Sequence record: SRR20825010_4798
DNA: 35,810 nt
Direction: 5' to 3' (one strand)
Shown: positions 2 through 12,607 of the stretch, in pieces
Layout of the letters: every line of letters starts with the position of its first letter
Numbering within the stretch: the first letter of the stretch is position 1
Notes under the pieces: generated by a model
The model's database searches: none
The model's input: the letters and a program-made list of their open reading frames with translations, nothing else
Told to the model about the DNA's origin: nothing
Program-made: the position numbers and the translations under genes

Positions 2-2308
2 GCCGATGCCACCGCCATATATGGTTCCCGTGGGGCCAATGGGGTGGTATTGATCACCACTAAAAAAGGAACCGGATATGATAAAAAGACAGCTGTGGAA
101 GCGCGTTGGTATTCAGGTCTGGGAACCGTTTCCAATAAAATGGAACTGTTGGATACCCAGCAGTATTTAAGCATTAGAAGGGCCGCCCTGGAAAACGACG
201 GCAGGGAGGCCAATGAAACCAGCGATTACGACCTACTGCTGTGGGACCAAAACCGTTATACGGATTGGCAGGAGGAGCTTTTCGGGGGCACTTCCACCAT
301 AACCGACGTAAATTTATCCGCATCAGGGGGCAATGCCACCACCTCTTTTAGATTGGGCGGTTCCTATCATAAGGAAGATATGGTATTCCCAGGTGACCAG
401 GATTATAATAAGATAACTGGGGGACTTAATCTAAACCACCTCTCCGATAATAAAAGGTTCAATATTGATTTATCCGTAAACTACGGTTTGGACAAAAGTG
501 ATGTTTTTGCCAACGGTGGGACCAATCTTGTGTCGACAGCAATGATCTTACCGCCCAATGCCCCGGCTATCTACAACCCGGATGGTAGCATACATTGGGA
601 AGCTTGGGAATATTCCAGTTGGGACAACCCTTTGGCACCTATTATGCACAGGACCACGGAGGATGAGGGAAATAGCATTATATCCAATTTGGGCTTGTCA
701 TACCAACTTTGGAAGGGTATGACGTTAAAAATGAATTCAGGTTATACCAGAAATGTTAGGGAGTACATAGGCCTTGTTTCCAAAGAAGCCTATAGTCCTC
801 AACTGAGGGACGGAACCGGTCACGTCTCCCAAAGAAACCATCGGAAACGGCAATCCTGGATTTTGGAACCCCAGTTATTGTATTCAAATAAGCTTGGGAA
901 GGTTGAAATTGAGGCTTTGTGCGGAGCGACCTTTCAACATAGCGAAAATAGCAACCTGAGTGTTTCGGGAGAAGGTTTTGTATCGGAATCGCTGATGGGC
1001 GACCTATCGGCCGCTGAGGTATTGAAAGTAGCCAGCAATGAAAAGATAGCCTACCGTTACAGTGCTATTTTTGCCCGACTGGGCTTTAACTACAAGAAAA
1101 AATATTTTATCAACCTTACGGGGCGTAGGGACGGGTCTTCCCGATTTGGGCCAAACAAACGTTTTGCCAATTTTGGGGCCATTGGGGGTTCCTGGATCTT
1201 TTCCGAAGAAAATTTGATAAAGGACCACTTTCCTATTTTAAGTTTTGGAAAACTTCGGGGAAGCTACGGTACCACAGGAAACGACCAAATTGGGGATTAT
1301 GGATATTTGGATGCCTACGAGGCTACCAGGGGACCGGGCGGCCTTTATCCGACCCAACTTTCCAACCCGGATTATTCATGGGAAATTAACAAAAAACTGG
1401 AAGTTGCCCTAGATCTGGGGTTTATCAAGGACCGAATAAATTTAGGGGTAAACTGGTACCGTAACCGTTCTTCCAACCAATTGGTGGGGTATCCCCTGCC
1501 TGCCATTACAGGCTTTAACACGGTCCAGGCCAATTTGCCGGCAACGGTCCAGAATACTGGGTGGGAAGTGGAGTTGTCCGTCATCAATATCAACTCCAAG
1601 GTATTTAAATGGTCCACTTTTCTTAACCTGACCGTACCGCGCAACAAATTATTGGACTTTCCAAACTTGGACCAAACCTCGTATGCCAATTTGTACCGTA
1701 TCGGGCATCCGTTGAACATCGAATTGTTTTACAAATACGGGGGAGTGGATACAGAAACCGGACTTTATAAGGTGGTTGACGTGAACGATGATGGTAGGTT
1801 GGATTATGAGGACCGTACGGAAATCAGAAACTTGGGGAGAACGTATTACGGTGGCTTGGCCAATAATCTGTCCTACAAAGGCATAGGGCTGCAGTTTTTA
1901 TGGGAGTTCGTAAAGCAGGACAGCTCAACCAGGGGATTTTTAATGGACGTGCCCGGTTCCATAGGCAATCAAACCGCAGATTTCTATAAATCATGGCAAA
2001 ATTCAGGGAACAGCAATGTACAGGAGGTGAGCCAATCCTTTGAAGCCCTAATCGCCTATTACGATGCTTTGGAGAGCGATCACTTTATAACGGACACATC
2101 TTTTCTGCGTCTAAAAACGCTTGCCCTAAGTTATCAGTTGCCAAATGGTTTCTTACATAAAAGCGGCGTGAAGAACTGTAAGCTATTTCTACAGGGCCAA
2201 AACCTAATTACCATATCCAATTTTGATGGGCTGAATGTTGAATATCCGGGCGGAAGCAACATACCTTCCCTGCGAACCATAACTATTGGAGTACAACTTA
2301 ATCTTTAA
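2..2308 (+). CDS. susC: SusC/RagA family TonB-dependent outer membrane transporter (5' part outside window)
   Basis: The frame is open from base 2 and reads ADATAIYGSRGANGVVLITTKKG, the SusC plug signature. RRDGSSRFG and KLRGSYGTTGND barrel motifs follow. A SusD gene lies directly downstream. Confidence 0.96.
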   Translation, partial: ADATAIYGSRGANGVVLITTKKGTGYDKKTAVEARWYSGLGTVSNKMELLDTQQYLSIRRAALENDGREANETSDYDLLLWDQNRYTDWQEELFGGTSTITDVNLSASGGNATTSFRLGGSYHKEDMVFPGDQDYNKITGGLNLNHLSDNKRFNIDLSVNYGLDKSDVFANGGTNLVSTAMILPPNAPAIYNPDGSIHWEAWEYSSWDNPLAPIMHRTTEDEGNSIISNLGLSYQLWKGMTLKMNSGYTRNVREYIGLVSKEAYSPQLRDGTGHVSQRNHRKRQSWILEPQLLYSNKLGKVEIEALCGATFQHSENSNLSVSGEGFVSESLMGDLSAAEVLKVASNEKIAYRYSAIFARLGFNYKKKYFINLTGRRDGSSRFGPNKRFANFGAIGGSWIFSEENLIKDHFPILSFGKLRGSYGTTGNDQIGDYGYLDAYEATRGPGGLYPTQLSNPDYSWEINKKLEVALDLGFIKDRINLGVNWYRNRSSNQLVGYPLPAITGFNTVQANLPATVQNTGWEVELSVININSKVFKWSTFLNLTVPRNKLLDFPNLDQTSYANLYRIGHPLNIELFYKYGGVDTETGLYKVVDVNDDGRLDYEDRTEIRNLGRTYYGGLANNLSYKGIGLQFLWEFVKQDSSTRGFLMDVPGSIGNQTADFYKSWQNSGNSNVQEVSQSFEALIAYYDALESDHFITDTSFLRLKTLALSYQLPNGFLHKSGVKNCKLFLQGQNLITISNFDGLNVEYPGGSNIPSLRTITIGVQLNL

Positions 2309-2320
2309 ATAAAAATAACC

Positions 2321-3730
2321 ATGAGGTACACTAATAATAAGATTCGATTCATAGTGGCTTTCAACCTGCTTTTTACAATGTCCTGTGAAAATTTTGTAGA
2401 GCTTGATACGCCAGATCATATACTGGTAAGCCCAGTGGTATTCAATAGTGGGGAAACCGCTACTGCGGCCATAAAAGGAATTTACAACGAATTGGCCGAT
2501 GCGGATTTTTCCCGTGGATATCAATATTCCGTTACCGTACTGGCCGGAATGCCCTCCGATATTTTTGAGACCACCAGTGTTACGGACACCCGTTATGGCC
2601 CATTTCAACAGAATGAGATTGCTCCAGGGGAGACACCGGATGCCTCCGCCAACTATAACCTGTGGTCCAGTGCCTATAATGTCATCTATATGGCCAATAG
2701 CGCCTTTGAAGGATTGGAAAATTCAACGAACATCCCTGCGGGGCAACTTGGAATACTTGAGGGCCGCGCTCTTTTTTTAAGGGCCTTTACCTATTTCTAC
2801 CTGACGAACCTGTATGGCGACGTTCCTTTGGTCCTGACCACGGATTATCGACAGAATTCCCTGGCAACAAGGAATCCGGCCAGTGAGGTATGGGACCAAT
2901 TGACGGATGACCTAGAAGAAGCTGTGGTCCTTCTTGATGGACAGGATTTTTATGGGGAGAACGAGCGAACCAACATCAACCAATATGTGGTACAGGCCTT
3001 TTTGGCCAGGGTCTACCTATACCGGGAAGACTGGAATAAAGCAGAGGAATGGAGCAGCAAGGTTATTGATCAGACTACTATATATGAAATCCAGGAGGAT
3101 TTGGATCTAGTGTTCTTAAAAAACAGCAAGGAAGCCATTTGGCAGATATCCCCTGAGGGCAGGGGATTTTCCTCAACATATACCGGGGAAGGCTATATGT
3201 TCAGAGGCAATTCCAGTTCGCCGGTAAAACTGTCGGACAATTTTGTGGCCTCCATGCAAGAAAAGGATAAAAGGCTTGCCAATTGGGTAGGATTCAATTC
3301 CAGCAGGTCATTTCATTTTCCTTATAAATACAAAGACTCCAACAGTAGAAATAGTGCTTCCGAATATTCTATGGTGCTTCGCTTGGCGGAACAATACTTG
3401 ATTCGGGCAGAATCGCGGGTCATGCAAGGGAATATTTCCGGGGCAATTGCCGATGTCGATGTATTGAGGTCCAGGGCAGGATTGGATCTTATCAATGATA
3501 TCGAGCCCGGAATAAACAAGGAAGGGTTACTGAACATTATATCGGAGGAACGAAAACTGGAACTCTTTTCAGAATGGGGGCACCGCTGGTTCGACCTTAA
3601 GCGTACTGGAAAAGCGTCCCAAGTGCTAATGCCCATAAAGCCGTTATGGCAAGAGACGGATGTATTGTTTCCCATACCACAAGTGGAACTTGACAAGAAC
3701 CAAAATCTACATCAAAATGTTGGGTACTAG
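2321..3730 (+). CDS. susD: RagB/SusD family outer membrane lipoprotein
   Basis: Lipoprotein signal (LLFTMSC). Motifs LRAFTYFYLTNLYGDVP, LRLAEQYLIRAE and ERKLELFSEWGHRWFDLKR. Starts 12 bp after susC. Confidence 0.96.
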   Translation: MRYTNNKIRFIVAFNLLFTMSCENFVELDTPDHILVSPVVFNSGETATAAIKGIYNELADADFSRGYQYSVTVLAGMPSDIFETTSVTDTRYGPFQQNEIAPGETPDASANYNLWSSAYNVIYMANSAFEGLENSTNIPAGQLGILEGRALFLRAFTYFYLTNLYGDVPLVLTTDYRQNSLATRNPASEVWDQLTDDLEEAVVLLDGQDFYGENERTNINQYVVQAFLARVYLYREDWNKAEEWSSKVIDQTTIYEIQEDLDLVFLKNSKEAIWQISPEGRGFSSTYTGEGYMFRGNSSSPVKLSDNFVASMQEKDKRLANWVGFNSSRSFHFPYKYKDSNSRNSASEYSMVLRLAEQYLIRAESRVMQGNISGAIADVDVLRSRAGLDLINDIEPGINKEGLLNIISEERKLELFSEWGHRWFDLKRTGKASQVLMPIKPLWQETDVLFPIPQVELDKNQNLHQNVGY

Positions 3731-3749
3731 AATAACAAGGCTTTCGTCC

Positions 3750-6614
3750 ATGTCCATATCAAAGGTCCTAATTTGTTATGTTTTCTTTACCTTGAACCTT
3801 ACAGGAACATATTCACAGGAAGAAGATGCCTATGTGCCATTAAAGTTGGATCCAAGTATCCGCTTTGGAAAGTTATCCAACGGTTTTACCTATTACATAA
3901 AACATGTGGCCAATTCCGGCGACAAGCTTGTGATGCGCTTTTATGTCAAGACCGGGGATTATAGTGAGGCACCCGAGGAACTGGATTTTGCACATGCCAT
4001 TGAACATCTCGCGTTTAAATGTGCCAAGCATTTTAGCGGCAATATTGCTAATAATACAAAAATGCGTTCCAGATTGGGCATGGACGAAAATGACGTTTTT
4101 GGAGGAACATCCGCAATGAAAACATTATATTATTTTAATGTTCCCTATGACCGCAGGGATGCTTTTGATACTGGGTTACAATGGTTCCAGGATATTTCGG
4201 ACCTGCATTTGACCCCAGAGGTAATCAATAAAGAAAGAGGCCCCTTAAGACAGGAGGTAATAATGAAACAGGGTAGCAATTTAAAAGAACATTTTACTAG
4301 GATGCGCCTTGAATCCGAAATAATGCCCTGCAGAATGGATAATTCCAATTTCTTTGAACATAACAAAAAATTTGACCCCGAACGGCTCATAAAATTTTAT
4401 AGGAAATGGTACTTGTCAAATAATATGGCGTTGGTTCTGGTAGGTGATACCACACGAATACAGGATATGGAGAGCAACGTTATAAAGCGCTTTTCCAATC
4501 TTGAAAGTGGCAGGTCCCCTATACCGAGCGAAAAATGTGTAGCGGAATATCTGGATCGGCCAAATCAATTTGTCTCGTTGGTGCAATCTAAGGCCCTTGA
4601 AAACTCCAATACATCTTACGTTAAGGTTCATCTTTATATGAGGGATGGTAAAATTTTGGAACAAAGGGATACTTGGGACGGACTAAAAAGAGAAGTGGTC
4701 TGGAGCATGTTGCGAAATGTGATGAATGGTCGTTTCAAAAGGGTCGGCAATGATTACAATTCTACTTTTTCGGCCTCGGGCATGCCGCCCCACCTCGCTT
4801 TTCCCGCATACCGAATACAAATTCAAGAGGCCGGGGAAAATGCGGAAAGGGCAATTAGGAAAGTCATGGTTCTGTTGCAGCAGTTTAAGAAATACGGGCT
4901 GAGCGAAACAGAATGGGAGCAGCAAAAGAATAAGAAGATCAAGGAAATGCAACCCGATGTTACAGAGAACTTAAATTATTGGATAGGACAGATCCAAAAT
5001 AATTATGTTTATGGCTTGGCCCTTCCGGAGAACAAGGCTTCAGTTCTACATCGATGGTTGTCAGATCTGACTTTGGGCGAATTCAATGCGCTTTTGCAAG
5101 ACTATATGTTCACTATGCCCAATGACATTGCGATTGTTGCACCTGAAGGAGTAAACTTTAATGAGAAAGAAGTCCGTTCTTGGATCCAACAAGAGCAGAA
5201 CAGGGCATCTGGGCCTTATATTTTTAAGGAGATACCCGGTCAACTGATGGATAGGACCAAGGTTGCCTCCCTAAAACCGGTGGAATCGAACTTTATTGGT
5301 ACAAGTTCCTTTGGAGCAAGGGAATTTGTTTTGGATAATGGAGCAAAGGTGGTGTTGCTCAATTCAAAAGACTTGGCAAAAAGTAACAATGATAAGATTT
5401 ATCTACATGGCTTCAGTCCATATGGGGCTTCGTGCTTTAAAAAGGGAGATTATTTTTCGGCCATAAATGCACCATCAATTATACAAAATGCGGGATTGGG
5501 TGAAATGGATAAATTTCAAATTCAGGGTTTCCTTGATGGAACGAGTATAAGGAGTGGCTTGTCCCCATACATTGATTATAGGGAAACTGGAATTAAAGGA
5601 AATGCCTCCATTCATGATCTTGAAAATCTGCTACAGCTGGTTTACCTCCATTTTACCAATCCAAGAAAGGATCATAGGGCCTTTGATGATTGGAAACTCC
5701 AACAGATTAAAAGACATAGCTCCAAACCGTCCTATGATCCTATTTTGGAGGATTTCAATGTTGCCGTACGCGAGTTTCTAGTTGATAGTTCAAAAGCTCC
5801 AAATGGAACCCCGAGATGGGAAGGTATTTCGAAAACCAATTTTGACCGGAGCTATGAAATTTATAACCAATTATATGGGGATCCTTCGGATTTCACATTC
5901 TTGATCACCGGGGATGTTACAGTAAATGCCATTTTGCCACTGATTCAAAAATACCTGGGCAGTATTCCCCGTTCGGGATCCGTACCGGGTTGTAGACAAG
6001 AAATGATCGGAAACGTAAAGTTGCCAAAGGGTCCATTGTACAGGGAATTTTCTGCCCGGGAACTTGGTGCTTTATATGATTTGAAAGGCGTTAAATATTC
6101 CATGAAGTTCATAAGTGCAACGCAGGATCCGTTGGATTGGCAAGAACATATTAAAGTAGAGATTTTGGGATCCTTGCTAAGTTCAATTTCCAAAAAGTTA
6201 CGGTACGTTGATGAATCCGCAATATACGACACTTTTGCGACGGCCTCTTTCAATAGGGAGCTGTCATCCTATGAGATTACATTGTATTTGGATTGTATGG
6301 CCCAAGATTTGGACAAAATACGGATTTCCTGTAAAGAGCTGGTAAAAGAAGTGGGCAAGAAATCATTGCAACAGGGACTATTTAAGGAAGTTATAATAAA
6401 CAAAATCACCAAGTTACAGGGAGGGAGTGTATTCCAGCAATTGGAAAAACTGCATGGATACTATAAATTTAATAAGCCATGGTTATACACCACTGAGGTA
6501 GAAGATTATTTAAAATCTTTAAAAATCGAGGATATAGAGGTAACGGCCAAAAAATATTTAAGGGATGAAAATATGATGGAATTTGTTTTTAAAAATGGCC
6601 GGAAGGATCCATAG
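3750..6614 (+). CDS. M16 family (pitrilysin/PqqL-like) zinc metallopeptidase, exported
   Basis: Motifs GKLSNGFTYYI, inverted zinc motif HAIEH (HxxEH), downstream ERGPLRQE and a second-half LDNGAKV. Start moved from 3660 to the ATG at 3750, which avoids the SusD overlap and gives a signal-peptide-like N-terminus. Confidence 0.9.
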   Translation: MSISKVLICYVFFTLNLTGTYSQEEDAYVPLKLDPSIRFGKLSNGFTYYIKHVANSGDKLVMRFYVKTGDYSEAPEELDFAHAIEHLAFKCAKHFSGNIANNTKMRSRLGMDENDVFGGTSAMKTLYYFNVPYDRRDAFDTGLQWFQDISDLHLTPEVINKERGPLRQEVIMKQGSNLKEHFTRMRLESEIMPCRMDNSNFFEHNKKFDPERLIKFYRKWYLSNNMALVLVGDTTRIQDMESNVIKRFSNLESGRSPIPSEKCVAEYLDRPNQFVSLVQSKALENSNTSYVKVHLYMRDGKILEQRDTWDGLKREVVWSMLRNVMNGRFKRVGNDYNSTFSASGMPPHLAFPAYRIQIQEAGENAERAIRKVMVLLQQFKKYGLSETEWEQQKNKKIKEMQPDVTENLNYWIGQIQNNYVYGLALPENKASVLHRWLSDLTLGEFNALLQDYMFTMPNDIAIVAPEGVNFNEKEVRSWIQQEQNRASGPYIFKEIPGQLMDRTKVASLKPVESNFIGTSSFGAREFVLDNGAKVVLLNSKDLAKSNNDKIYLHGFSPYGASCFKKGDYFSAINAPSIIQNAGLGEMDKFQIQGFLDGTSIRSGLSPYIDYRETGIKGNASIHDLENLLQLVYLHFTNPRKDHRAFDDWKLQQIKRHSSKPSYDPILEDFNVAVREFLVDSSKAPNGTPRWEGISKTNFDRSYEIYNQLYGDPSDFTFLITGDVTVNAILPLIQKYLGSIPRSGSVPGCRQEMIGNVKLPKGPLYREFSARELGALYDLKGVKYSMKFISATQDPLDWQEHIKVEILGSLLSSISKKLRYVDESAIYDTFATASFNRELSSYEITLYLDCMAQDLDKIRISCKELVKEVGKKSLQQGLFKEVIINKITKLQGGSVFQQLEKLHGYYKFNKPWLYTTEVEDYLKSLKIEDIEVTAKKYLRDENMMEFVFKNGRKDP

Positions 6615-6688: not shown

Positions 6689-6706
6689 AGTGAATTAATG
6701 AACCCT

Positions 6707-6997
6707 CTAGGGGCGTGGGTCTGGAATTACCTTGATCTGATTTGTAGAATTCCGTATCGGATTGTTGGTGCTTTCATCGGCGTATACGGTATAGACCTGT
6801 GATTGCCCTTCGAGCCTTACTTTACAATCCTTATTGTCCACTTCATCACAATCCACGTCCACCTCATACCAGGTAGTGCCTATCTGAATAAATCCGGTAG
6901 CGTAGTAATCATCGGCCGTTGCATTTGTGAACGCAAACGACAGTGCAATGGCAAAAATAAATGCCAACATCGGTAATATCAATTTCAACTTTTTCAT
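6707..6997 (-). CDS. Small secreted two-cysteine protein, DUF6520-like
   Basis: 96 aa with signal peptide MKKLKLILPMLAFIFAIALSFA and an acidic mature region containing C-x7-C. Lies downstream of a MauE/DoxX gene, the context I associate with this family. Confidence 0.75.
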   Translation of the reverse strand: MKKLKLILPMLAFIFAIALSFAFTNATADDYYATGFIQIGTTWYEVDVDCDEVDNKDCKVRLEGQSQVYTVYADESTNNPIRNSTNQIKVIPDPRP

Positions 6998-7123
6998 GAT
7001 AATATAATTTTAATTAATAATAGCTGCCTACTCTCTTGTACAGGTTTTCGGTCTTCCCCCTGCTCTTGTCGCGCAACAAAATATCTTCATCATTTTACTT
7101 TTTATTTGTGGTCCCATGGCCAT

Positions 7124-7588
7124 TTAAGGGTCTTGGTGGATCTTGTTCCATGTATTATTTTTATGTTTGGGGGAGAGCAATATGGCCAGTAAGGCCAATA
7201 GGAGCAATATCGCATTGAGCAACAAATGATGTTCCCAGGACAAGAGGGAGATAACGCCCCCACAGGAACAAGGTTTATAGGGGGCAAAAAATAGAATGGC
7301 CAGGGTGTAGCCGGTAAATAGGAGCATCAGGACTGCTGCCCCATAGAGCCCCATCAATCTCGTTTTTTTCCAAATCAATAACAGGGCAACGGCCAGTTCC
7401 GACAAGGGTATGGCCCATGAGGCCAAAGAAGCTATGGCCTTGCCCCCAAGTACGGGCGAGTTCCTGATGTTGTCGTAGAACATATGCCCTTCAAGGAGTT
7501 TGGTAAGTCCGGCATACGCAAATAGGACAATGAACAGCAAACAGGCCGTTTGTACAATTGTCTCCCTAAATATTTGGTGCCGATTCAT
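7124..7588 (-). CDS. MauE/DoxX family redox-associated membrane protein
   Basis: About four hydrophobic segments, with LFAYAGLTKL and PCSCGGVI motifs. The likely start is the ATG at 7588 (MNRHQIF); the 7783 start overlaps the AraC gene. Confidence 0.88.
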   Translation of the reverse strand: MNRHQIFRETIVQTACLLFIVLFAYAGLTKLLEGHMFYDNIRNSPVLGGKAIASLASWAIPLSELAVALLLIWKKTRLMGLYGAAVLMLLFTGYTLAILFFAPYKPCSCGGVISLLSWEHHLLLNAILLLLALLAILLSPKHKNNTWNKIHQDP

Positions 7589-7625: not shown

Positions 7626-7664
7626 ATTACTTGTAAGGGATAAATACTTATCCCAGAGGGATTT
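7626..7664. promoter_or_regulatory. Tandem 18-bp operator-like repeats (21-bp period) upstream of the MauE/DoxX gene
   Basis: ATTACTTGTAAGGGATAA (7626-7643) and CTTATCCCAGAGGGATTT (7647-7664). A Bacteroidota -7-like GAACTTTG lies about 10 bp further on the minus strand. Confidence 0.6.
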
Positions 7665-7670: not shown

Positions 7671-8669
7671 TTAGATCTCTCCCAAATCGGCCTTTTTTCT
7701 AAAAATTTTAGGGGAGTATCCGTACTGTTCGCTGAACGTCCTGCTGAAATGCGGAACGCTTTTGAAACCGACCATCTTGGCAATGGACTTGAAGTTCAGT
7801 TGGGTATATTGGACCAAGGTCTTGGCCTTTCGCAACCTTTCCTGAACCAGATATTTGAATACCGTGGTGCCATAAAGTTCCTTAAAACCATATTTCAGCT
7901 TGAACTCATTGGTACCCAATTGGTGGGCCAGGTCCTTAAGGTTGGGCAGGTCCATCTGCAGGTTGTTGAGGATCATATCCCGTCCCTCCCTTATCTTGCG
8001 GATGTCCTCATAACTCAGTTTTACCTTTGGCCTTGGTCCTTTCTTTTTGGAAATTGTGCTATTGGGGTCCGTATTAATGGCAGTTTGGCTCCTTTCCTTG
8101 GCATAGGTCCTGCCCGTAACGGTATGGACCACGGTGATCAGAACGTTGTGGGAACCGTCCGCTTCGGATCTGATGGACGTGATATGGCAGCGGTTGGGGA
8201 CGACCAGATCTTCATTGGTCAAAAAACTAAGGGGGATTGCCATATCATAAAAACTCTTTTTACCAATGGTTTTCCATTTCTGGTCCCAATCCGTTTGGGA
8301 GGCTTCCGTCAACAGGTCCGAAAATGGTTTTTGGACAATATTGCCGTGCAATTTGGAAAGGATGGTACAGGCCTTTTGGTTGGCCATTTGGACCATACCA
8401 TTCCCGTCCAGTAAAAAGGACATCTGCACCAAATGCTCGGTGGTGCCCTTGGAACTCACATATCCCTGATGGTAGAAGGATTCTTGGATCTCTTCGGCCA
8501 GCATGTTGAGCACTATGGCCAGGGCCTCCACATTGTCGTTCCTGTCCGAGGTCTCCAGGCGGTAAAAGAAATTACCTCCGGCCATTTCCAGGAGCATGTG
8601 CTGGATTTCTTGCATTCTATGTTCAGTTCTTAAGGGGGACATAGGTGTTTGTTTATAGGTTAGCTTCAA
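7671..8669 (-). CDS. AraC family regulator with N-terminal HAMP-like and PAS-like domains
   Basis: HAMP-like EMAGGNFFYRLETSDRNDNVEALAIVLNMLAEE, PAS-like FLLDGNGMVQMANQKAC and a C-terminal double HTH (LKDLAHQLGTNEFKLKYGFK ... IAKMVGFKSVPHFSRTF). Exact start uncertain. Confidence 0.92.
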   Translation of the reverse strand: MKLTYKQTPMSPLRTEHRMQEIQHMLLEMAGGNFFYRLETSDRNDNVEALAIVLNMLAEEIQESFYHQGYVSSKGTTEHLVQMSFLLDGNGMVQMANQKACTILSKLHGNIVQKPFSDLLTEASQTDWDQKWKTIGKKSFYDMAIPLSFLTNEDLVVPNRCHITSIRSEADGSHNVLITVVHTVTGRTYAKERSQTAINTDPNSTISKKKGPRPKVKLSYEDIRKIREGRDMILNNLQMDLPNLKDLAHQLGTNEFKLKYGFKELYGTTVFKYLVQERLRKAKTLVQYTQLNFKSIAKMVGFKSVPHFSRTFSEQYGYSPKIFRKKADLGEI

Positions 8670-8696
8670 TGGGTATTACCTTAGGTATTGAATAGT

Positions 8697-9098
8697 TTAA
8701 AATATGGCCGTAGCAAAGACAAGGCCGAGGAACTTGCCCAAATAGGCCAGGGCCTTCGAAATTTCGCGAAAAGAGGCCGTAGGGATGTCCGGATGGTTCG
8801 TCATAAGATAGAACCTTGTCATGACATCCGTCACGGGAGGCTCAATGATAAAGGCCAGGGCCTTTATCAGCAGGGAACCCTCCAGCGCCAGATAGTCCCT
8901 GGCGGCCTTGTCCACCCTGCGGAGCTGTCGGATGTCGCAGAGGACGGGATAGGCCCGTTCCTCCTGGAACATCAACCGGTCCCTGACAATCCGTTTAGAC
9001 GCTTGGAGGTCGATAATTACCCCCTTTTTGTAAATGATATGTACAATATTGTCCACAAGCATGTACTGCGTGAAATCGTTTTCAAAATAACTTTGCAT
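8697..9098 (-). CDS. STAS/SpoIIAA-like small protein of unknown function
   Basis: 133 aa alpha/beta pattern with PVLCDIRQL, KAARDYLA and ALAFII, ending in F...ALAYL. Ends 27 bp before the AraC gene on the same strand. Confidence 0.7.
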   Translation of the reverse strand: MQSYFENDFTQYMLVDNIVHIIYKKGVIIDLQASKRIVRDRLMFQEERAYPVLCDIRQLRRVDKAARDYLALEGSLLIKALAFIIEPPVTDVMTRFYLMTNHPDIPTASFREISKALAYLGKFLGLVFATAIF

Positions 9099-9197
9099 GG
9101 TCTATTAATAAAAACTGGTAGATGACACTAAATTTACATAAATATAATGATTGTGAATTTTAAAACCTTCTATAGGACCTATATAAAAGGGGTTTTT

Positions 9198-9236
9198 CTT
9201 ATCCATGAGGGATTAAAACTTATCTGAGAGGGATAA
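9198..9236. promoter_or_regulatory. Tandem 18-bp operator-like repeats (21-bp period) in the divergent promoter region
   Basis: CTTATCCATGAGGGATTA (9198-9215) and CTTATCTGAGAGGGATAA (9219-9236). The palindrome TATAGGACCTATA lies nearby at 9171-9183. Confidence 0.65.
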
Positions 9237-9303
9237 ATTTTGTGTTGGGTAGTACAAAATCCTACAAATGCCACTACTTTTTAGGGACCAAACACAAATG
9301 ACC

Positions 9304-11697
9304 ATGGCAAAGATCAAGCACAATAATTTTTTGGACACCGTCAACGAGGTGATTACCGATGCAGCCAAACAGGGTGTTCTACACTTGTATGCGGAAGGGG
9401 AGGAGTTTACAGGAAGGACCATTGGGGTCGGGGGAAATACGCTCTACCATTTTGGTACCACAGGATATTTGGGACTGGAACAGGACCCCAGATTAAAGGC
9501 GGCCGCAGTCGGTGCCATCCAAAAGTACGGTACCCAGTTTCCCCTGTCCAAATCCTATATTTCCCATCCGTTGTACAGCGCTCTGGAAGAAAAAATTGGG
9601 CAAATGTACGGGCAGCCCATCATTATCACCAAGAACAGTACCCTGGGGCATCTGGGTGCCATACCCAGTGCCGTGGACGATAGGGATGCCGTTATACTGG
9701 ACCATCAGGTGCACTGGAGCGTTCAGAATGCCTGCAAGCTGCTAAAGAACCGAAGTATCCCAGTGGACATGGTCCGCCACAACCATTTGGACATGCTGGA
9801 GGACAAAATAAAATACCATTCCCGAAAGCGGAACCGTATCTGGTACATGGCGGACGGCATATACTCCATGTACGGGGACAGTGCACCGCTGCACCAACTG
9901 ATTGCCCTATCGGAAAAGTATTCCCAATTGCATTTCTATATCGATGACGTGCACGGCATGAGCTGGGCAGGGAGACATGGTACTGGTTTTGTCATGGACC
10001 AGCTAAAGGAGCTTCCGGACAACATACTCCTTTTTGGGACCTTGAGCAAGACTTTTGGGGCAAGCGGGGCGGTACTGGTATGTCCGGATAAAAAAATGCA
10101 CCATAGAATAAGGACCTTTGGAGGGCCCCTGACCTTTTCGGCCCAACTGGAACCGGCATCCGTCGCAGCGGCCTCGGCCTCGGCGGACATCCATCTTTCC
10201 CCGGAGATCTACAGCCTCCAGGACGAACTCAAGGAACGTATCCAATATTTCAACGGCCTGCTGTCCAAAACGGATCTGCCCTTGGTGGATAAGAACATTT
10301 CCCCTGTGTTCTATATTGGTACCGGGATGCCCAAAACAGGTTACAATTTTGTAAACCGATTGATGGAGGAGGGATTCTATGTCAATCTGGGATTGTTCCC
10401 GGCCGTGCCTGTAAAGAACACTGGCGTACGCATCACTATATCCAGACATAACCAAAAGGAGGAGATAGCTGCCCTGGTGGAGGCCATGGCCCATCATTAT
10501 CCAAAGGCCCTTCAGGAGACCGGAACCGACCCGGGCAGGGTACACCATGCCTTTGCCATGGCCGTCCCTAAAACAGGGGCAAAAGTTGTACCTGGTGATC
10601 TCGATATCCGATTGGAAAATTCCATAAACATGGTAGAGAAGGAGATGTGGAACAATTTAATGGGGGCACATGGGGCCATGGACTGGGACGGACTCTTGTT
10701 TTTGGAGAACAGTTTTCAGGGGAACAATCTCAAGGAACACAACTGGGAGTTTCGATATCTGATCATACGCGACGGCAAAGGGAAGCCGATATTGGCCACG
10801 TTCATGACCCTAGGACTGTGGAAGGACGATATGTTGGCCAAGGAAAGTATATCAAAAACCTTGGAACAGACCAGAAAGTACGATCCCTATCATTTGACTT
10901 CCAGGGCACTCTCCCTAGGTTCCCTTTTTACAGAGGGAAATCACCTGTACCTGGACCGGAAGCATCCATTGAAGGATAGGGCCCTGAGCATACTGATGTG
11001 GACCCTGGAAACCTTGGGACATAAAATGGGGGCCAAAATGACCGTCCTCCGGGATTTTGGGCCGGATGAAGAATTGGGGAAATTTTTTAAAGATCAGGGA
11101 TTTGTACGCATCCAAATGCCTAATTCCTGTGCCGTGCACCTTACAGGTCGTATGGATGTCGAAACCTATTTCTCCCAGCTTTCCGTCCGTAACCGTCGTC
11201 ACTTCCGAAAGGAGATCTTGGCTTTTGAACCGGAATTCCAGGTAGACATCCTGGCATCATGCCACAGGGAACAATTGCAACAGCTTATAGCTCTGTACGG
11301 CAATGTACATAGGAACAATCTTGGCCTGAATACCTTTTCCTTTCCGCAGCGGGTGTTCGAGGCCATGTCCGACAATCCCCATTGGGAGTTCATCATACTC
11401 ACTTTAAAGAGCAGCCCACAAACGCCCATAGGGGCAATGTTCTGCTATAAAAACCAGAACAAAACCTACGTTCCGGCCTTCGTAGGACTGGATTACACCT
11501 ATGTAACGAGCCATTATACCTATCGCCAATTATTGTACCAGACCATCAAAAGGGCCATCGCCCTAGGCTTTTACGGTATCGATTTTGGGCTTACCGCTTC
11601 CTTTGAAAAACGCAAGCTGGGAGCCGAAGTCAGCGAACGGTATGCTTATGTACAGGCTTCCGACAACTATGTACTGGAACTTTTGGGCACCATGTAA
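9304..11697 (+). CDS. Fusion of PLP-dependent alpha-oxoamine synthase (BioF/Kbl/CqsA fold) and C-terminal GNAT/FemAB-like domain
   Basis: GYLGL, DGIYSMYGD, DDVHG, GTLSKTFG (PLP lysine) and RITIS motifs in the first ~420 aa. The C-terminal part has GNAT-like features (IDFGLTASFEKRKLGA). Start taken at MAKIKHNN. Confidence 0.88.
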   Translation: MAKIKHNNFLDTVNEVITDAAKQGVLHLYAEGEEFTGRTIGVGGNTLYHFGTTGYLGLEQDPRLKAAAVGAIQKYGTQFPLSKSYISHPLYSALEEKIGQMYGQPIIITKNSTLGHLGAIPSAVDDRDAVILDHQVHWSVQNACKLLKNRSIPVDMVRHNHLDMLEDKIKYHSRKRNRIWYMADGIYSMYGDSAPLHQLIALSEKYSQLHFYIDDVHGMSWAGRHGTGFVMDQLKELPDNILLFGTLSKTFGASGAVLVCPDKKMHHRIRTFGGPLTFSAQLEPASVAAASASADIHLSPEIYSLQDELKERIQYFNGLLSKTDLPLVDKNISPVFYIGTGMPKTGYNFVNRLMEEGFYVNLGLFPAVPVKNTGVRITISRHNQKEEIAALVEAMAHHYPKALQETGTDPGRVHHAFAMAVPKTGAKVVPGDLDIRLENSINMVEKEMWNNLMGAHGAMDWDGLLFLENSFQGNNLKEHNWEFRYLIIRDGKGKPILATFMTLGLWKDDMLAKESISKTLEQTRKYDPYHLTSRALSLGSLFTEGNHLYLDRKHPLKDRALSILMWTLETLGHKMGAKMTVLRDFGPDEELGKFFKDQGFVRIQMPNSCAVHLTGRMDVETYFSQLSVRNRRHFRKEILAFEPEFQVDILASCHREQLQQLIALYGNVHRNNLGLNTFSFPQRVFEAMSDNPHWEFIILTLKSSPQTPIGAMFCYKNQNKTYVPAFVGLDYTYVTSHYTYRQLLYQTIKRAIALGFYGIDFGLTASFEKRKLGAEVSERYAYVQASDNYVLELLGTM

Positions 11698-11720
11698 CAT
11701 GAGGAATAAACCCAAAGGGG

Positions 11721-12560
11721 ATGAAGTATCAAAGACTGGTATCGGAATTCAAGACGCAACTGGACAAGCTGGAGAACGGAAACGGCGACATCCTTTTTAG
11801 GGCGGAGTCGGGCATCACCATGGTAGAACGCTACATAAAACGGCTGCAGGCCCAAATTGATAAGAAGTCCTTTGATTCCCAAGTGGAGGAAATCAATTTT
11901 TTTAAGCATATCAAACCCCAGTTCTTTAGTAAACTTATCTATTATGGCAGGTTGTTCAACATCGAGAGCAGAAGGCCTCGGGGGAGTAATGCCGCACAGG
12001 TGAAATACTTAAAGAACCAGATCGAAAAGTTACAGATCTTCTTTAACGACAACCTGGAATTCTATAACTATTACCGTCGTGGGGCCATTTCCTTGGACGA
12101 ACAGTATTTCGTACGGGGCAATATGGACCTGCGGCTGCCCTTGGAATCCTTTCATTTTATGATCGACGACAGGTTCTCCACCTGTCAGGACGGTACGGTG
12201 GCGACCATAATGGCCTATGACATGCTTATCGTATACCTTCAAAGGGAGATCGATACCTTGACGAGCAACATGGACGACTTAAAAGATAAACCTATGGAAC
12301 GACCTTCAAAACTATTTTGGACCGGTAGCAAGACGGATCTGATCGAACTCCTCTATGCCCTCCACTCCATTAAATGTATAAACAGTGGGACCGCGGACAT
12401 AAAGGAGCTGGCGGCCCATTTCGAACATTTCTACAATGTGGACCTTGGCAACTACTACCATACCTTTATCGAGATCAGGTCCAGGAAGACCGGTAGGACC
12501 AAGTTTCTGGACAGGCTCATCGAGATGCTGCAACAAAGGATGGAGGGTCTGGACGACTGA
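11721..12560 (+). CDS. rteC: RteC domain transcriptional activator of ICE excision/transfer
   Basis: C-terminal WTGSKTDLIELLYAL...YHTFIEIRSRK...TKFLDRL and N-terminal EEINFFKHIKP. Lies upstream of an excisionase-like operon. Confidence 0.93.
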   Translation: MKYQRLVSEFKTQLDKLENGNGDILFRAESGITMVERYIKRLQAQIDKKSFDSQVEEINFFKHIKPQFFSKLIYYGRLFNIESRRPRGSNAAQVKYLKNQIEKLQIFFNDNLEFYNYYRRGAISLDEQYFVRGNMDLRLPLESFHFMIDDRFSTCQDGTVATIMAYDMLIVYLQREIDTLTSNMDDLKDKPMERPSKLFWTGSKTDLIELLYALHSIKCINSGTADIKELAAHFEHFYNVDLGNYYHTFIEIRSRKTGRTKFLDRLIEMLQQRMEGLDD

Positions 12561-12564: not shown

Positions 12565-12607
12565 AAATCCCCCACCTTGGGATAGAGGTGGGGGATTTCC
12601 ATTTTTT
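12565..12607 (+). terminator. Hairpin after rteC (terminator or operator)
   Basis: Perfect 13-bp inverted repeat AAATCCCCCACCT-N8-AGGTGGGGGATTT followed by CCATTTTTT. Confidence 0.65.

What the first reader, a model, noticed from the sequence alone, without database searches (positions are those of the whole stretch)
7671..12560. Candidate small-molecule signalling module wired to rteC: alpha-oxoamine-synthase/GNAT fusion, HAMP-PAS-AraC regulator and STAS-like protein
Seen: the synthase fusion ends 23 bp before rteC on the same strand, so they are probably one operon. It is divergent from a STAS-like gene and a soluble HAMP-PAS-AraC regulator. No tetQ, rteA or rteB is in the window. Established: in CTnDOT, tetracycline-induced RteA/RteB switch on rteC, which activates excision genes. 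Alpha-oxoamine synthases of this fold include the autoinducer synthases CqsA and LqsA, and PAS domains often bind small ligands. Inference: this ICE may make its own diffusible acyl-amino-acid-derived signal, sense it through PAS-AraC and co-induce rteC, giving a quorum-like switch for excision and conjugation. I do not know of such a circuit in Bacteroidota ICEs.
Basis: partly seen in the sequence, partly recalled or inferred. Interest (0 to 1): 0.85.

Follow-up and report, generated by a model that had tools for sequence, protein, structure and literature searches.

The report
Synthase-sensor module upstream of rteC
A conjugative element of marine flavobacteria carries, directly in front of its excision-activator gene rteC, a conserved enzyme-plus-sensor gene set that looks like a small-molecule signalling circuit and may decide when the element moves.

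Summary
The four genes are real and lie as described: PAS-AraC (7671-8669, -), DUF7793 (8697-9098, -), an alpha-oxoamine-synthase/tandem-GNAT fusion, here FUS (9268-11697, +), and rteC (11721-12560, +) 23 bp further on.

In 74 of 80 related loci from many Flavobacteriaceae genera, FUS sits directly upstream of rteC. The gap is 12-34 bp in 66 of 69 loci. 79 of 80 loci keep the divergent DUF7793 and PAS-AraC genes.

A tandem direct repeat with a 21-bp period lies upstream of FUS and again beside the araC stop. It occurs only in loci that have the AraC gene.

Outside Flavobacteriaceae the same FUS/DUF7793 pair is never next to rteC. There it sits with a PAS histidine kinase and a LuxR-type response regulator (13 of 15 loci). 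That kinase's N-terminal sensor region is homologous to the AraC protein's. So an old synthase-plus-sensor cassette was captured once in front of rteC.

DUF7793 folds like SpoIIAA/STAS. The FUS C-domain folds like FemX-type tandem GNATs.

Not shown: the product, whether it diffuses, what the PAS domain binds, or any effect on excision. FUS is no closer to CqsA than to other oxoamine synthases.

I found no description of this module in the literature.

The parts
2..2308 (+). SusC/RagA-type TonB-dependent outer-membrane transporter, cut by the window's start. First gene of the conserved left arm.
   Evidence: NCBIfam TIGR04056 489.3 bits, cut-off 368. A homologue holds this position in 64 of 81 sources.
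2321..3730 (+). SusD-family lipoprotein.
   Evidence: Pfam SusD_RagB 106.8 bits and SusD-like_3 81.2 bits. Conserved in 63 of 81 sources.
3660..6614 (+). M16 (insulinase-type) peptidase. This position is variable: other loci carry a Met-zincin (DUF4953), an S9 peptidase or a TlpA-like thioredoxin here.
   Evidence: Pfam Peptidase_M16_C 61 bits and Peptidase_M16 23.4 bits. Alternatives.
6707..6997 (-). DUF6520 small secreted Cys-containing protein.
   Evidence: Pfam DUF6520 80.3 bits. An N-terminal signal-peptide-like segment is seen by inspection. The positional equivalent (cluster c9, 53 loci) is also DUF6520, 44.5 bits.
7124..7588 (-). MauE/DoxX-type membrane protein. The long ORF runs to 7783, but the probable start is the ATG at 7586-7588.
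   Evidence: Pfam MauE 99.4 bits. Conserved at this position.
7630..7664 (+). Operator 2: two GGGAT half-sites 21 bp apart, between the araC stop and the MauE start, in the same orientation as operator 1.
   Evidence: The strict motif is found in 27 of 67 unique MauE-AraC spacers and in 3 of 5 further AraC-type loci.
7671..8669 (-). Soluble regulator: HAMP-like N-terminus, PAS domain, AraC-type double HTH. An alternative ATG start lies at 8642.
   Evidence: Pfam HTH_18 70.4, HTH_AraC 43.3 and PAS_9 28.5 bits. HAMP only E 0.14. The N-terminal sensor region is homologous to PAS histidine kinases of non-ICE cassettes, E 1e-10. No hydrophobic segment by inspection.
8697..9098 (-). DUF7793 protein with a SpoIIAA/STAS-like fold, co-oriented with the regulator.
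   Evidence: Pfam DUF7793 149 bits. AlphaFold model pLDDT 85.7. Foldseek top hits are DUF3478 SpoIIAA-like, STAS, SpoIIAA and RsbS, with TMq 0.55-0.65.
9110..9120 (-). Conserved leader word (ACCAGTTTTC on the - strand) 11-12 nt upstream of the DUF7793 ATG. Function unknown.
   Evidence: Alignment of 68 spacers. The word occurs at this place in 41 sources and almost nowhere else.
9198..9236 (+). Operator 1: tandem direct repeat CTTATCnnnGAGGGATWA x2 with a 21-bp period, upstream of the fusion gene. Candidate PAS-AraC binding site.
   Evidence: Two exact matches at 9198-9215 and 9219-9236. Conserved columns in 68 aligned spacers. The strict motif is in 40 of 77 unique spacers. It is present in 5 of 5 further AraC-type loci and absent from this spacer in 15 of 15 kinase-type loci.
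9268..11697 (+). FUS: a fusion of a PLP-dependent alpha-oxoamine synthase (about residues 50-410) and a FemX-like tandem-GNAT transferase (about residues 445-809). Probable start at 9298 or 9304.
   Evidence: Pfam and NCBIfam. PDB sequence matches to AONS, KBL and SPT keep the His, Asp-x-x-His and Ser-Lys motifs. C-domain model pLDDT 95.1. Foldseek top hits are FemX, aminoacyl-tRNA-dependent peptide synthases and tandem GNATs. All 81 copies are intact at 797-821 aa.
11721..12560 (+). rteC, the transcriptional activator of ICE excision genes in CTnDOT. Second gene of the FUS-rteC unit.
   Evidence: Pfam RteC 280.1 bits. The gap to FUS is 23 bp here and 12-34 bp in 66 of 69 loci.
12565..12598 (+). 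Terminator-like hairpin (14-bp stem, 7 G-C pairs, then a T run) that closes the FUS-rteC unit.
   Evidence: A hairpin starts within 12 nt of the rteC stop in 53 of 59 unique loci, against 174 of 295 shuffled controls, so enrichment is modest.

Best explanation
The stretch is the regulatory input module of a family of Flavobacteriaceae integrative conjugative elements (ICEs).

Proposed mechanism:
- A soluble one-component regulator (HAMP-like N-terminus, PAS, AraC HTH) is co-transcribed with a STAS-fold protein, DUF7793.
- This regulator binds a tandem 21-bp-period direct repeat upstream of a bicistronic operon, FUS-rteC, and controls it.
- FUS is a two-domain enzyme. Its PLP-dependent oxoamine-synthase domain condenses an amino acid with an acyl thioester to give an alpha-aminoketone. 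Its FemX-like tandem-GNAT domain then N-acylates or N-aminoacylates that amine.
- The resulting small lipophilic molecule is the likely ligand of the HAMP-like/PAS sensor, directly or through DUF7793.
- FUS and rteC share a transcript, so the circuit would feed back on itself. RteC would then switch on the downstream excision and replication genes (HTH_17 and following).

Shown here:
- the gene content
- the conserved order and spacing
- the operator and its co-occurrence with the AraC gene
- the age of the FUS/DUF7793/PAS-sensor cassette
- a single capture of that cassette in front of rteC
- the folds of DUF7793 and the FUS C-domain

Inferred:
- co-transcription
- AraC binding to the repeat
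- the chemistry of the product
- that the product is the sensor's ligand
- that the product acts between cells
For: (1) Synteny. The search for related loci gave 329 relatives, of which the best 80 loci were kept.
- rteC lies directly downstream of FUS in 74 of 80 loci. That is 73 by tblastn plus a partial rteC at a contig end in L048. One locus (L014) ends 186 bp after FUS. Five lack rteC (L005, L006, L041, L047, L064).
- PAS-AraC and DUF7793 are present in 79 of 80 loci. The exception, L056, starts inside the module.

(2) Unbiased samples.
- In 201 Flavobacteriaceae genomes (about one per genus) there are 23 full-length FUS genes. 17 are directly upstream of rteC, 1 is at a contig end, and 5 are not adjacent.
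- In 401 Bacteroidia genomes, 43 hold the FUS C-domain. It is rteC-adjacent only in 5 Flavobacteriaceae genomes and in none of the 37 genomes of other families.

(3) One unit. The gap is 12-34 bp in 66 of 69 loci. No terminator-like site lies between FUS and rteC, and a strong one lies at 12565-12598.

(4) Operator. Exact tandem repeats lie at 9198-9215 and 9219-9236, and a second pair at 7637-7664.
- Over 81 sources (1.58 Mb, both strands) the motif GGAT[AT]N16GGAT[AT] falls 46+7 times in the DUF7793|FUS spacer and 19+4+3 times in the MauE|AraC spacer. No other place has more than 3 hits.
- It is present in 5 of 5 extra AraC-type loci, including 4 without rteC, and in L110.
- It is absent from the equivalent spacer in 15 of 15 kinase-type loci.
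- Of the 15 rteC loci without AraC, 12 have no hit and 3 have one hit each (L104, L105, L119), whose positions relative to genes I did not check.

(5) Old synthase-sensor pairing. In 15 loci from 15 non-Flavobacteriaceae genomes, FUS is divergent from 1-5 DUF7793 genes in 13 of 15. A PAS histidine kinase lies within a few genes in 13 of 15. In seven loci a gene of the response-regulator cluster lies directly beside the kinase, and two of these were confirmed as REC-GerE by Pfam. The AraC protein's first ~110 residues align to the kinases' N-termini (E 1e-10 and 3e-7).

(6) Tree of 101 FUS proteins. All 86 AraC-type copies form one clade (SH-like 100). All rteC-linked copies form one sub-clade of 81 (support 100) with scattered secondary losses.

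(7) Enzyme. The PLP motifs are kept. The C-domain model (pLDDT 95.1) matches FemX and aminoacyl-tRNA-dependent peptide synthases at E 1e-10 to 1e-12. All 81 copies are intact, and FUS is the most conserved gene of the left arm at 63-68% identity.

(8) Precedent. Spt followed by the acyltransferase bCerS acting on the 3-keto amine in bacterial ceramide synthesis (PMC11087976, passages read). ICEs under quorum control, ICEBs1 and ICEMlSymR7A (PMC5812530, passages read).

(9) Other rteC elements. These carry other regulators at the same place. Examples are TPR kinase + response regulator + LytTR in L112 (Pfam), with three ORFs of matching size and order in L119, and MarR in L113. In CTnDOT, rteC is switched on by RteA/RteB of the tetQ operon (PMC5812530, passages read).
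Against: - The oxoamine-synthase domain is no nearer to CqsA/LqsA than to biotin, glycine or serine enzymes.
- No product, exporter or receptor-ligand contact is shown.
- The PAS domain has a near-invariant Cys, so redox or another external cue is a plausible input instead of the FUS product.
- I could not place the operator relative to a Bacteroidota-type promoter. Activation versus repression is therefore open.
- Operator 2 points away from MauE and into the 3' end of araC, which the simple model does not explain.
- Only about one in five rteC genes in the family sample has FUS upstream (17 of about 80 full-length matches). 5 of 23 FUS genes there, and all those outside the family, are not next to rteC. 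The cassette's primary role is therefore not ICE-specific.
- An internal rteC promoter inside the 3' end of FUS cannot be excluded.
Confidence: 0.5

Rival explanations
1. Environmental switch with a lipid output. The HAMP-like/PAS-AraC regulator senses an external or physiological cue such as redox, light-independent stress or a nutrient. It then turns on FUS-rteC. FUS makes a membrane lipid, an N-acylated aminoketone similar to oxidised ceramide or a sulfonolipid precursor. That lipid prepares the envelope for mating, or is simply a co-regulated product, and is not the sensor's ligand.
For: - The chemistry AOS then N-acyltransferase on the keto-amine is that of Spt and bCerS (PMC11087976, passages read).
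- The nearest functionally named relatives of the AOS domain include serine palmitoyltransferases and cysteate acyltransferase.
- A near-invariant Cys in the PAS domain.
- Operator 2 links the same regulator to an envelope-related operon, MauE-DUF6520.
Against: - Scores to the curated SPT models are far below their cut-offs (139.9-155.2 bits against 500-640).
- A lipid-synthesis gene would not be expected to keep a dedicated PAS sensor and 1-5 STAS-fold genes beside it across at least 15 families of Bacteroidia.
- The nearest folds to the C-domain are aminoacyl-tRNA-dependent transferases rather than acyl-CoA lipid acyltransferases.
Confidence: 0.27
2. Passenger cargo. The cassette is an accessory gene set that landed at the cargo hotspot upstream of rteC. 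rteC is transcribed and regulated independently, and the AraC protein regulates only its own cassette and the MauE/SusCD arm.
For: - The site upstream of rteC holds unrelated genes in other elements: beta-lactamase-family, HMA, and MarR with an efflux protein.
- The cassette exists without rteC in most Bacteroidia.
- Loss of rteC with retention of the cassette occurs (L005, L006, L041, L047, L064; L084, L099, L100, L102).
Against: - The gap is kept at 12-34 bp in 66 of 69 loci across genera whose FUS proteins are only 63-68% identical, with no room for a terminator plus promoter.
- The rteC-linked copies have a single origin and persist for a long time.
- Variable cargo in these elements sits elsewhere, between the AAA/EEP genes and the amidase.
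Confidence: 0.13
3. Protein or peptide modification. The FemX-like domain uses aminoacyl-tRNA or an acyl donor to modify a protein or peptide, for example DUF7793 or the secreted DUF6520 peptide. The modified protein, not a free metabolite, is the signal or partner-switch element.
For: - The top fold matches are FemX and aminoacyl-tRNA-dependent peptide synthases.
- DUF7793 has invariant Arg41 and Arg67 and near-invariant Lys64 but no invariant Ser or Thr.
- DUF7793 is always next to FUS, in up to five copies.
- A weak-support prediction that DUF7793 contacts the HAMP-like/PAS region. The score is 0.40 with the best of 3 controls at 0.00. That mark was reached by 51 of 78 solved complexes and 2 of 108 mismatched pairs. 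At 0.60 or under, it was reached by only 5 of those 78 and by all 4 mismatches that passed. The runs agree in at least 97% of contacts and the partner's pLDDT is at least 85.
Against: - The fused oxoamine synthase makes a small-molecule amine that is the obvious acceptor.
- No precedent is known to me for such a protein modification.
- The complex score is weak and by its own calibration more often wrong than right.
Confidence: 0.1

Closest known systems
CTnDOT regulatory cascade (tetQ-rteA-rteB -> rteC -> xis2c/xis2d/exc)
   Same: rteC (Pfam RteC 280 bits) sits between an upstream input module and downstream small HTH and replication-type genes, inside a Bacteroidota ICE with a Tra/Mob backbone. 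RteC's role as activator of the excision operon is taken from PMC5812530 (passages read).
   Different: There is no tetQ, rteA or rteB. The input is a one-component PAS-AraC regulator plus a STAS-fold protein. rteC is the second gene of an operon whose first gene is a biosynthetic enzyme. No translational attenuation leader was seen.
CqsA/CqsS (Vibrio) and LqsA/LqsS/LqsR (Legionella) alpha-hydroxyketone signalling
   Same: An alpha-oxoamine-synthase-family enzyme is encoded next to a dedicated sensor. In non-ICE relatives that sensor is a histidine kinase, often with a response regulator alongside.
   Different: The AOS domain is not a member of the CqsA group (43 bits to CqsA chains against 126 bits to the best chain; NCBIfam model 73.6 bits against a cut-off of 428). 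It is fused to a tandem GNAT domain. The sensors are soluble HAMP-like/PAS proteins, whereas CqsS and LqsS are membrane kinases (recalled, not tested here). A STAS-fold partner is always present.
Quorum-regulated ICEs: ICEMlSymR7A (TraR/TraI acyl-homoserine lactone) and ICEBs1 (PhrI/RapI peptide)
   Same: The element carries its own signal-synthesis and sensing genes upstream of the excision and transfer decision (PMC5812530, passages read). The proposed logic here is the same.
   Different: The chemistry, proteins and phylum all differ. Here nothing beyond gene content, order and operators is shown.
Bacterial ceramide pathway Spt -> bCerS (Caulobacter) and Mycobacterium tuberculosis BioF2 (Rv0032)
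   Same: An oxoamine synthase is followed by N-acylation of the keto-amine (PMC11087976, passages read). Rv0032 is an oxoamine synthase with an extra domain and unknown function (PMC12910592, passages read).
   Different: Here the two activities are fused in the order AOS then transferase. Rv0032's extra domain is N-terminal. The scores to SPT models are far below their cut-offs. The gene is tied to sensors, not to lipid-pathway genes.
FemX/FemABX and aminoacyl-tRNA-dependent peptide synthases (tandem GNAT fold)
   Same: The C-domain model matches FemX (7z6a, 1ne9, 4ii9) and Sbb17/Sba18 at E 2.7e-12 to 2.4e-10, with TMq 0.52-0.56. Pfam Acetyltransf_6 is above its cut-off.
   Different: Sequence identity is 12-14% with rmsd of 5-7 A. 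Pfam FemAB_like is below its cut-off (23.9 against 27). The donor substrate is unknown.

Membership tests
RteC (Pfam PF09357) | Full-length match to the family model above the gathering score | tested here: met
   280.1 bits against a cut-off of 25.3, profile positions 1-217 of 219.
CTnDOT-type RteA/RteB/RteC cascade | rteC under the control of a tetQ-rteA-rteB operon on the same element | tested here: not met
   No TetQ-like, histidine-kinase or sigma-54-type regulator among the scanned ORFs of the window. The element's far ends lie outside the window.
Alpha-oxoamine synthase (PLP fold type I, BioF/KBL/SPT/ALAS group) | Family match plus the PLP-binding Lys, the Asp-x-x-His motif and the ring-stacking His | tested here: met
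   Aminotran_1_2 86.7 bits. NCBIfam PRK07505 259.7 bits (below its cut-off of 342) and bioF 163 bits. In the residue-by-residue alignment to 8xha, HWS, DDVHG and LSK align with the chain's HFC, DEAHS and LNK. The same columns are conserved in the 131-sequence consensus. The catalytic roles of these residues are recalled, not tested.
CqsA/LqsA alpha-hydroxyketone autoinducer synthases | Membership of the curated equivalog model, or closer similarity to CqsA than to other AOS enzymes | tested here: not met
   NF005526 73.6 bits against a cut-off of 428. CqsA chains 2wk8 and 3hqt score 43 bits, ranked behind AONS, KBL, SPT and ALAS chains.
CqsA/LqsA alpha-hydroxyketone autoinducer synthases | Synthase gene kept next to a cognate sensor gene | tested here: met
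   PAS-AraC in 79 of 80 ICE loci. PAS histidine kinase within a few genes in 13 of 15 non-ICE loci. This is a likeness of arrangement only.
FemABX / tandem-GNAT transferases | Two GNAT halves in one domain, with similarity to Fem-type enzymes | tested here: met
   Model pLDDT 95.1. Foldseek top ten are FemX, Sbb17/Sba18 and the tandem GNAT MAB_4324. Acetyltransf_6 28.1-28.9 bits against a cut-off of 22. FemAB_like 23.9 bits against a cut-off of 27, not reached.
FemABX / tandem-GNAT transferases | Aminoacyl-tRNA as donor | not testable with these tools
   Needs an enzyme assay.
STAS / SpoIIAA-like anti-sigma antagonists | SpoIIAA-like alpha/beta fold | tested here: met
   Model pLDDT 85.7, pTM 0.81. 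Foldseek matches: 2q3l (DUF3478, SpoIIAA-like) E 7e-5; 4xs5 STAS; 1tid/1thn SpoIIAA with TMq up to 0.65; RsbS. One Atlas cluster of DUF7793 proteins carries Pfam SpoIIAA-like on 12% of members.
STAS / SpoIIAA-like anti-sigma antagonists | Conserved phosphorylatable Ser/Thr and a partner kinase of the SpoIIAB type | tested here: not met
   In 95 aligned DUF7793 proteins the invariant residues are Arg41 and Arg67. No Ser or Thr is invariant or nearly so. No SpoIIAB-type gene is in the cassette.
HAMP domain | Match to the Pfam HAMP model | tested here: inconclusive
   E 0.14, 13 bits against a cut-off of 25 for residues 18-63. NCBIfam WalK aligns residues 19-188 to WalK 205-366, E 4.4e-6. The segment is shared with the kinases of related cassettes.
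AraC/XylS transcription factors | C-terminal double HTH, and tandem direct-repeat operator half-sites about two helical turns apart | tested here: met
   HTH_18 70.4 bits. Two 18-bp half-sites with a 21-bp period sit upstream of FUS and co-occur with the gene. Binding itself was not tested. The 21-bp rule for AraC is recalled.
Quorum-sensing-controlled ICE | A self-made extracellular signal that raises excision or transfer with density | not testable with these tools
   Needs metabolite, reporter and mating assays.

The most novel reading that the evidence does not exclude
FUS + DUF7793 + HAMP-like/PAS sensor may be a so far unrecognised autoinducer system spread through Bacteroidia, a group with no well-defined native quorum-sensing synthase-receptor pair. 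Its signal would be an N-acyl or N-aminoacyl alpha-aminoketone. One lineage of Flavobacteriaceae conjugative elements would have captured it, swapped the kinase output for an AraC DNA-binding domain, and placed rteC in the synthase operon. The element would then count its own carriers and excise in a bistable, density-dependent way. The co-regulated MauE-DUF6520/SusCD arm might add a second, peptide-based channel.
Probability: 0.3. Interest if true: 0.9.

Novelty: new variant of a known kind. Interest (0 to 1): 0.72.

Why it matters
How Bacteroidota conjugative elements other than the tetracycline-induced CTnDOT decide to excise is largely unknown. These elements move polysaccharide-use, defence and resistance genes among marine and host-associated bacteria.

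This module gives a concrete wiring diagram that can be tested: sensor, operator, a synthase-rteC operon, then the excision genes. It applies to an element family present in many Flavobacteriaceae genera, sometimes in two or three copies per genome.

Separately, the synthase/STAS/PAS-sensor cassette occurs in 43 of 401 sampled Bacteroidia genomes. That makes it a candidate cell-cell or metabolite signalling system in a phylum where such systems are poorly defined, and the enzyme's product could be found by expression and mass spectrometry.

Tried and rejected
- **RNA evidence.** The look-up of sequencing runs listed no holder on record as RNA. Four runs labelled 'RNA-Seq' were laid, but they are contigs and 'probably DNA'. 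Nothing can be said on transcription: no RNA holder listed.
- **Own genome.** The window's assembly is not held. I used G001 (27% shared words) and sampled relatives instead.
- **Promoters.** The sigma-70 scan gave 13 sites against 10.5 expected, which is uninformative for Bacteroidota. My search for TAnnTTTG/TTTG boxes gave no convincing promoter for FUS, MauE or rteC.
- **Terminator conservation after rteC.** 53 of 59 loci against 174 of 295 shuffles, so only modest. An earlier, stricter count (11 of 60) was confounded by second hairpins.
- **Operator half-site in the whole window.** 4 matches against 3.93 expected. The single half-site is not significant. Only the tandem form and its placement are.
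- **PDB sequence search for the C-domain and DUF7793.** No C-domain hit at E 0.001. DUF7793's best hit is 3bl4 at E 0.081.
- **Earlier notes of this scan.** Nothing found by place, words or sequence.
- **Literature.** Nine searches found no description of this module. PMC11005914 (outline and passages read) concerns a different regulator in gut Bacteroidales. Supplements were not consulted.
- **LOV-type PAS.** Rejected by inspection: no NCRFLQ-type motif (the motif is recalled).
- **RteC as the protein that binds the tandem repeat.** Rejected because the repeat follows the AraC gene in loci without rteC. Of 15 rteC loci without AraC, 12 have no hit and 3 have one hit each, whose positions I did not check.
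- **Complex prediction, DUF7793 with the HAMP-like/PAS region.** Weak support only. It is cited under the fourth explanation with its controls and not used as evidence for the main reading.

Full report
**1. What is there.**
The window carries part of a Bacteroidota integrative conjugative element (ICE).

Right of the finding lie:
- an HTH_17 gene and a DnaC/DnaI-like ATPase
- an endonuclease/exonuclease/phosphatase-family (Exo_endo_phos) gene, SSB and DUF6876
- a DUF5712 protein (taken here to be the relaxase, from its position before the coupling protein) and a TraG/TrwB-type coupling protein
- Fic
- TraN, TraM, TraK and a VirB4-type TraG ATPase

Left of it lie:
- SusC (TIGR04056, 489 bits) and SusD
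- an M16 peptidase
- a small secreted DUF6520 protein
- a MauE/DoxX membrane protein

The four genes of the finding are as described:
- PAS-AraC, 7671-8669 (-)
- DUF7793, 8697-9098 (-)
- rteC, 11721-12560 (+), 23 bp after the FUS stop

No tetQ, rteA or rteB equivalent is among the scanned ORFs.

**2.
The FUS protein has many full-length relatives of about 800 aa in Flavobacteriaceae. A scan of one genome per species found 329 relatives, and the best 80 loci were kept. Several genomes hold two or three copies, for example Aequorivita antarctica on three contigs.

Results from tblastn, ORF clustering and gene maps:
- rteC lies directly downstream of FUS in 74 of 80 loci. One locus ends 186 bp after FUS, and five lack rteC.
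- PAS-AraC and DUF7793 are present and divergent in 79 of 80 loci. The exception begins inside the module.

The recurrent order is:
SusC > SusD > [M16 | Met-zincin DUF4953 | S9 peptidase | TlpA-like thioredoxin] > DUF6520 < (MauE fusion) < MauE < PAS-AraC < DUF7793 < | FUS > rteC > HTH_17 > orf224 > AAA > variable cargo, then amidase and the tra genes.

In Tamlana fucoidanivorans the block lies inside the element, between integrase-ParB-relaxase-coupling protein-defence cargo and the tra genes.

**3. Unbiased samples.**
In 201 Flavobacteriaceae genomes (about one per genus), 61 have an RteC match and 21 have FUS. Of 23 full-length FUS genes, 17 are directly upstream of rteC, one is at a contig end, and five are not adjacent. 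Roughly one in five full-length rteC genes therefore has FUS upstream.

In 401 Bacteroidia genomes, the FUS C-domain occurs in 43 genomes of many families, nearly always inside open frames of about 800-860 aa. It is next to rteC only in five Flavobacteriaceae genomes, in one of which FUS is broken. It is next to rteC in none of the 37 genomes of other families.

**4. An old cassette.**
I fetched 20 FUS loci not linked to rteC.

The 15 from outside Flavobacteriaceae show the following:
- FUS is divergent from one to five tandem DUF7793 genes in 13 of 15.
- A PAS histidine kinase (HisKA_3 or HisKA plus HATPase_c) lies within a few genes in 13 of 15.
- In seven loci a gene of the response-regulator cluster lies directly beside the kinase. 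Two of these were confirmed as REC-GerE by Pfam.

The first ~110 residues of the window's AraC protein are a HAMP-like helix pair and the start of the PAS domain. They align to the very N-terminus of these kinases (E 1e-10 and 3e-7). Pfam's own HAMP model gives only E 0.14.

The conserved unit is therefore enzyme + STAS-fold protein + HAMP-like/PAS sensor. The output is either kinase/regulator or, in Flavobacteriaceae, an AraC DNA-binding domain.

The five Flavobacteriaceae loci without rteC keep PAS-AraC and DUF7793. Most also keep the SusCD/MauE arm.

A FastTree tree of 101 FUS proteins was rooted on a kinase-type copy, and that rooting is my choice. It puts all 86 AraC-type copies in one clade (support 100). 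All rteC-linked copies fall in one sub-clade of 81 (support 100), with scattered later losses of rteC. This fits a single capture in front of rteC followed by spread with the element.

**5. One transcription unit.**
- The FUS-rteC gap is 12-34 bp in 66 of 69 loci. The three outliers reflect start-codon choice.
- The window has no terminator-like site in the gap.
- A 14-bp-stem hairpin with a T run starts 5 nt after the rteC stop, at 12565-12598. Related loci mostly have a hairpin there too, but enrichment over shuffles is modest.
- All 81 FUS copies are intact at 797-821 aa.
- Co-transcription remains an inference. No RNA data could be obtained.

**6. The operator.**
The divergent spacer of about 200 bp is conserved in length and holds a tandem direct repeat. 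In the window it reads CTTATCCATGAGGGATTA (9198-9215) and CTTATCTGAGAGGGATAA (9219-9236), with a 21-bp period. A second pair of GGGAT half-sites, also 21 bp apart, lies at 7637-7664 between the araC stop and the MauE start.

Where the strict tandem motif falls:
- Over 81 sources it falls 46+7 times in the DUF7793|FUS spacer and 19+4+3 times in the MauE|AraC spacer. No other place has more than 3 hits.
- Counted per unique spacer, it is in 40 of 77 and 27 of 67. The aligned columns are conserved more widely than the strict pattern shows.
- It is present in 5 of 5 further AraC-type loci, four of them without rteC, and in L110.
- It is absent from the spacer in 15 of 15 kinase-type loci.
- Of 15 rteC loci without AraC, 12 have no hit and three have one hit each, whose positions I did not check.

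The site therefore tracks the AraC gene, not rteC. Its form is the tandem direct-repeat kind that AraC-family dimers use (recalled). I could not place a Bacteroidota promoter with confidence, so the sign of regulation is open. Operator 2 has the same orientation as operator 1, pointing into the 3' end of araC, and this is unexplained.

**7. The proteins.**
- *AOS domain.* It matches AONS, KBL and SPT chains (best 8xha, 126-128 bits) and keeps the His, Asp-x-x-His and Ser-Lys PLP motifs. CqsA chains score 43 bits, and the curated CqsA-type model gives 73.6 bits against a cut-off of 428. The resemblance to autoinducer synthases is therefore only that of the superfamily.
- *C-terminal domain.* These ~390 residues have no PDB relative by sequence. 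The model is confident (pLDDT 95.1) and is a tandem GNAT. It is closest to FemX, to the aminoacyl-tRNA-dependent peptide synthases Sbb17/Sba18, and to other tandem GNATs, MprF domains and N-myristoyltransferase. A library-wide HMMER search found 708 representatives at E 0.001. Most of the best 150 are fusions of about 800 aa, so the fusion itself is old. Named members are Flavobacterium, Vicingaceae and other Bacteroidota, plus one 1429-aa protein of Candidatus Kentron.
- *DUF7793.* It models with pLDDT 85.7 and matches SpoIIAA-like DUF3478, STAS, SpoIIAA and RsbS. Its invariant residues are two arginines. It has no conserved Ser or Thr, so a phosphorylation-type partner switch is unlikely and ligand or partner binding is more likely. 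A complex prediction with the HAMP-like/PAS region gave weak support only (0.40 against a best control of 0.00).

**8. Mechanism proposed.**
- Shown: gene content, order, spacing, operator distribution, folds, evolutionary history.
- Inferred: the PAS-AraC protein controls the FUS-rteC operon through operator 1 and the MauE-DUF6520 operon through operator 2.
- Inferred: FUS makes an alpha-aminoketone and N-acylates or N-aminoacylates it. The same order of reactions is used by Spt and bCerS in bacterial ceramide synthesis (PMC11087976, passages read).
- Inferred: the product feeds back on the sensor.
- Inferred: RteC then activates the neighbouring excision-type genes, as in CTnDOT (PMC5812530, passages read).

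I put 0.8 on the operon, 0.7 on AraC binding to the repeat, about 0.4 on the product being the sensor's ligand, and about 0.3 on it acting between cells.

**9. Context that bears on the reading.**
Other rteC elements in the same family carry different genes at the same spot:
- a TPR histidine kinase, a response regulator and a LytTR protein with the SusCD/MauE arm retained (Pfam on L112; L119 has three ORFs of matching size and order)
- MarR with an efflux protein
- a LuxR-type protein
- a beta-lactamase-family gene
- an HMA protein

This fits the place upstream of rteC being where inputs are plugged in. It equally fits a cargo hotspot, which is the third explanation. L110 holds a 219-aa remnant of FUS before rteC, and one genome (G521) has a broken FUS.

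**10. Known or new.**
Nine full-text searches found no description of this module, of DUF7793's role, or of an oxoamine-synthase/tandem-GNAT fusion in ICE control. Supplements could not be read.

ICEs under quorum control and oxoamine-synthase autoinducer systems are both known. This would therefore be a new variant of known kinds, built from a synthase fusion, a STAS-fold partner and a sensor family that are all uncharacterised.

**Verdict.**
Interest 0.72.

Noticed in passing
window 7630-7664: A second tandem GGGAT operator lies right after the araC stop and upstream of MauE. It has the same orientation as the one upstream of FUS, so it points into the 3' end of araC. It could be an inverted activator site, an antisense promoter or a looping partner.
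   Followed up: partly
window 9110-9120: A conserved word, ACCAGTTTTC on the - strand, lies 11-12 nt before the DUF7793 start codon. The exact word is at this place in 41 of 81 sources and is very rare elsewhere. Its function is unknown.
   Followed up: partly
window 2-7588 and L001-L080: The arm SusC-SusD-X-DUF6520-(MauE fusion)-MauE is conserved with the element. X switches between M16 peptidase, Met-zincin (DUF4953/DUF5117), S9 peptidase and TlpA-like thioredoxins. It looks like a system that makes, processes or imports a disulfide-containing secreted peptide.
   Followed up: partly
L112 and L119: In some rteC elements the PAS-AraC/DUF7793/FUS triad is replaced by three other genes, while the SusCD/MauE arm stays. 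In L112 these are a TPR histidine kinase, a response regulator and a LytTR protein by Pfam. L119 has three ORFs of matching size and order.
   Followed up: partly
L096 11919-14367; L088; L089: Non-ICE cassettes carry up to five tandem DUF7793 paralogues next to FUS.
   Followed up: no
L110 11148-11804; G521:C1:1214954-1216064: Decayed copies. L110 has a 219-aa N-terminal remnant of FUS directly before rteC. One genome has a FUS broken by stop codons next to an intact rteC.
   Followed up: partly
window 12565-12598 and the same place in related loci: The hairpin after rteC differs in sequence between clades (CCCCCACCT...AGGTGGGGG here, TCCCAAGTT...AAGTTGGGA in most others) but keeps its pairing. 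This suggests a conserved RNA or terminator structure.
   Followed up: partly
window 21184-22656, 32753-33958, 34080-35288: Cargo-like genes on the element or beside it: a Fic-domain protein, a PLD-family protein and an MFS transporter. Related elements carry HipA-type kinase pairs and ABC-3C/FRG defence genes in the variable region.
   Followed up: no
P0190: A 1429-aa protein of Candidatus Kentron (a gammaproteobacterial symbiont) ends in the same C-domain. It is the only named non-Bacteroidota member seen.
   Followed up: no
L081 18277-18819: In Tamlana an ECF sigma factor gene lies about 1.5 kb upstream of the element's SusC. It was not seen directly upstream of SusC in the other loci that reach that far.
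   Followed up: no
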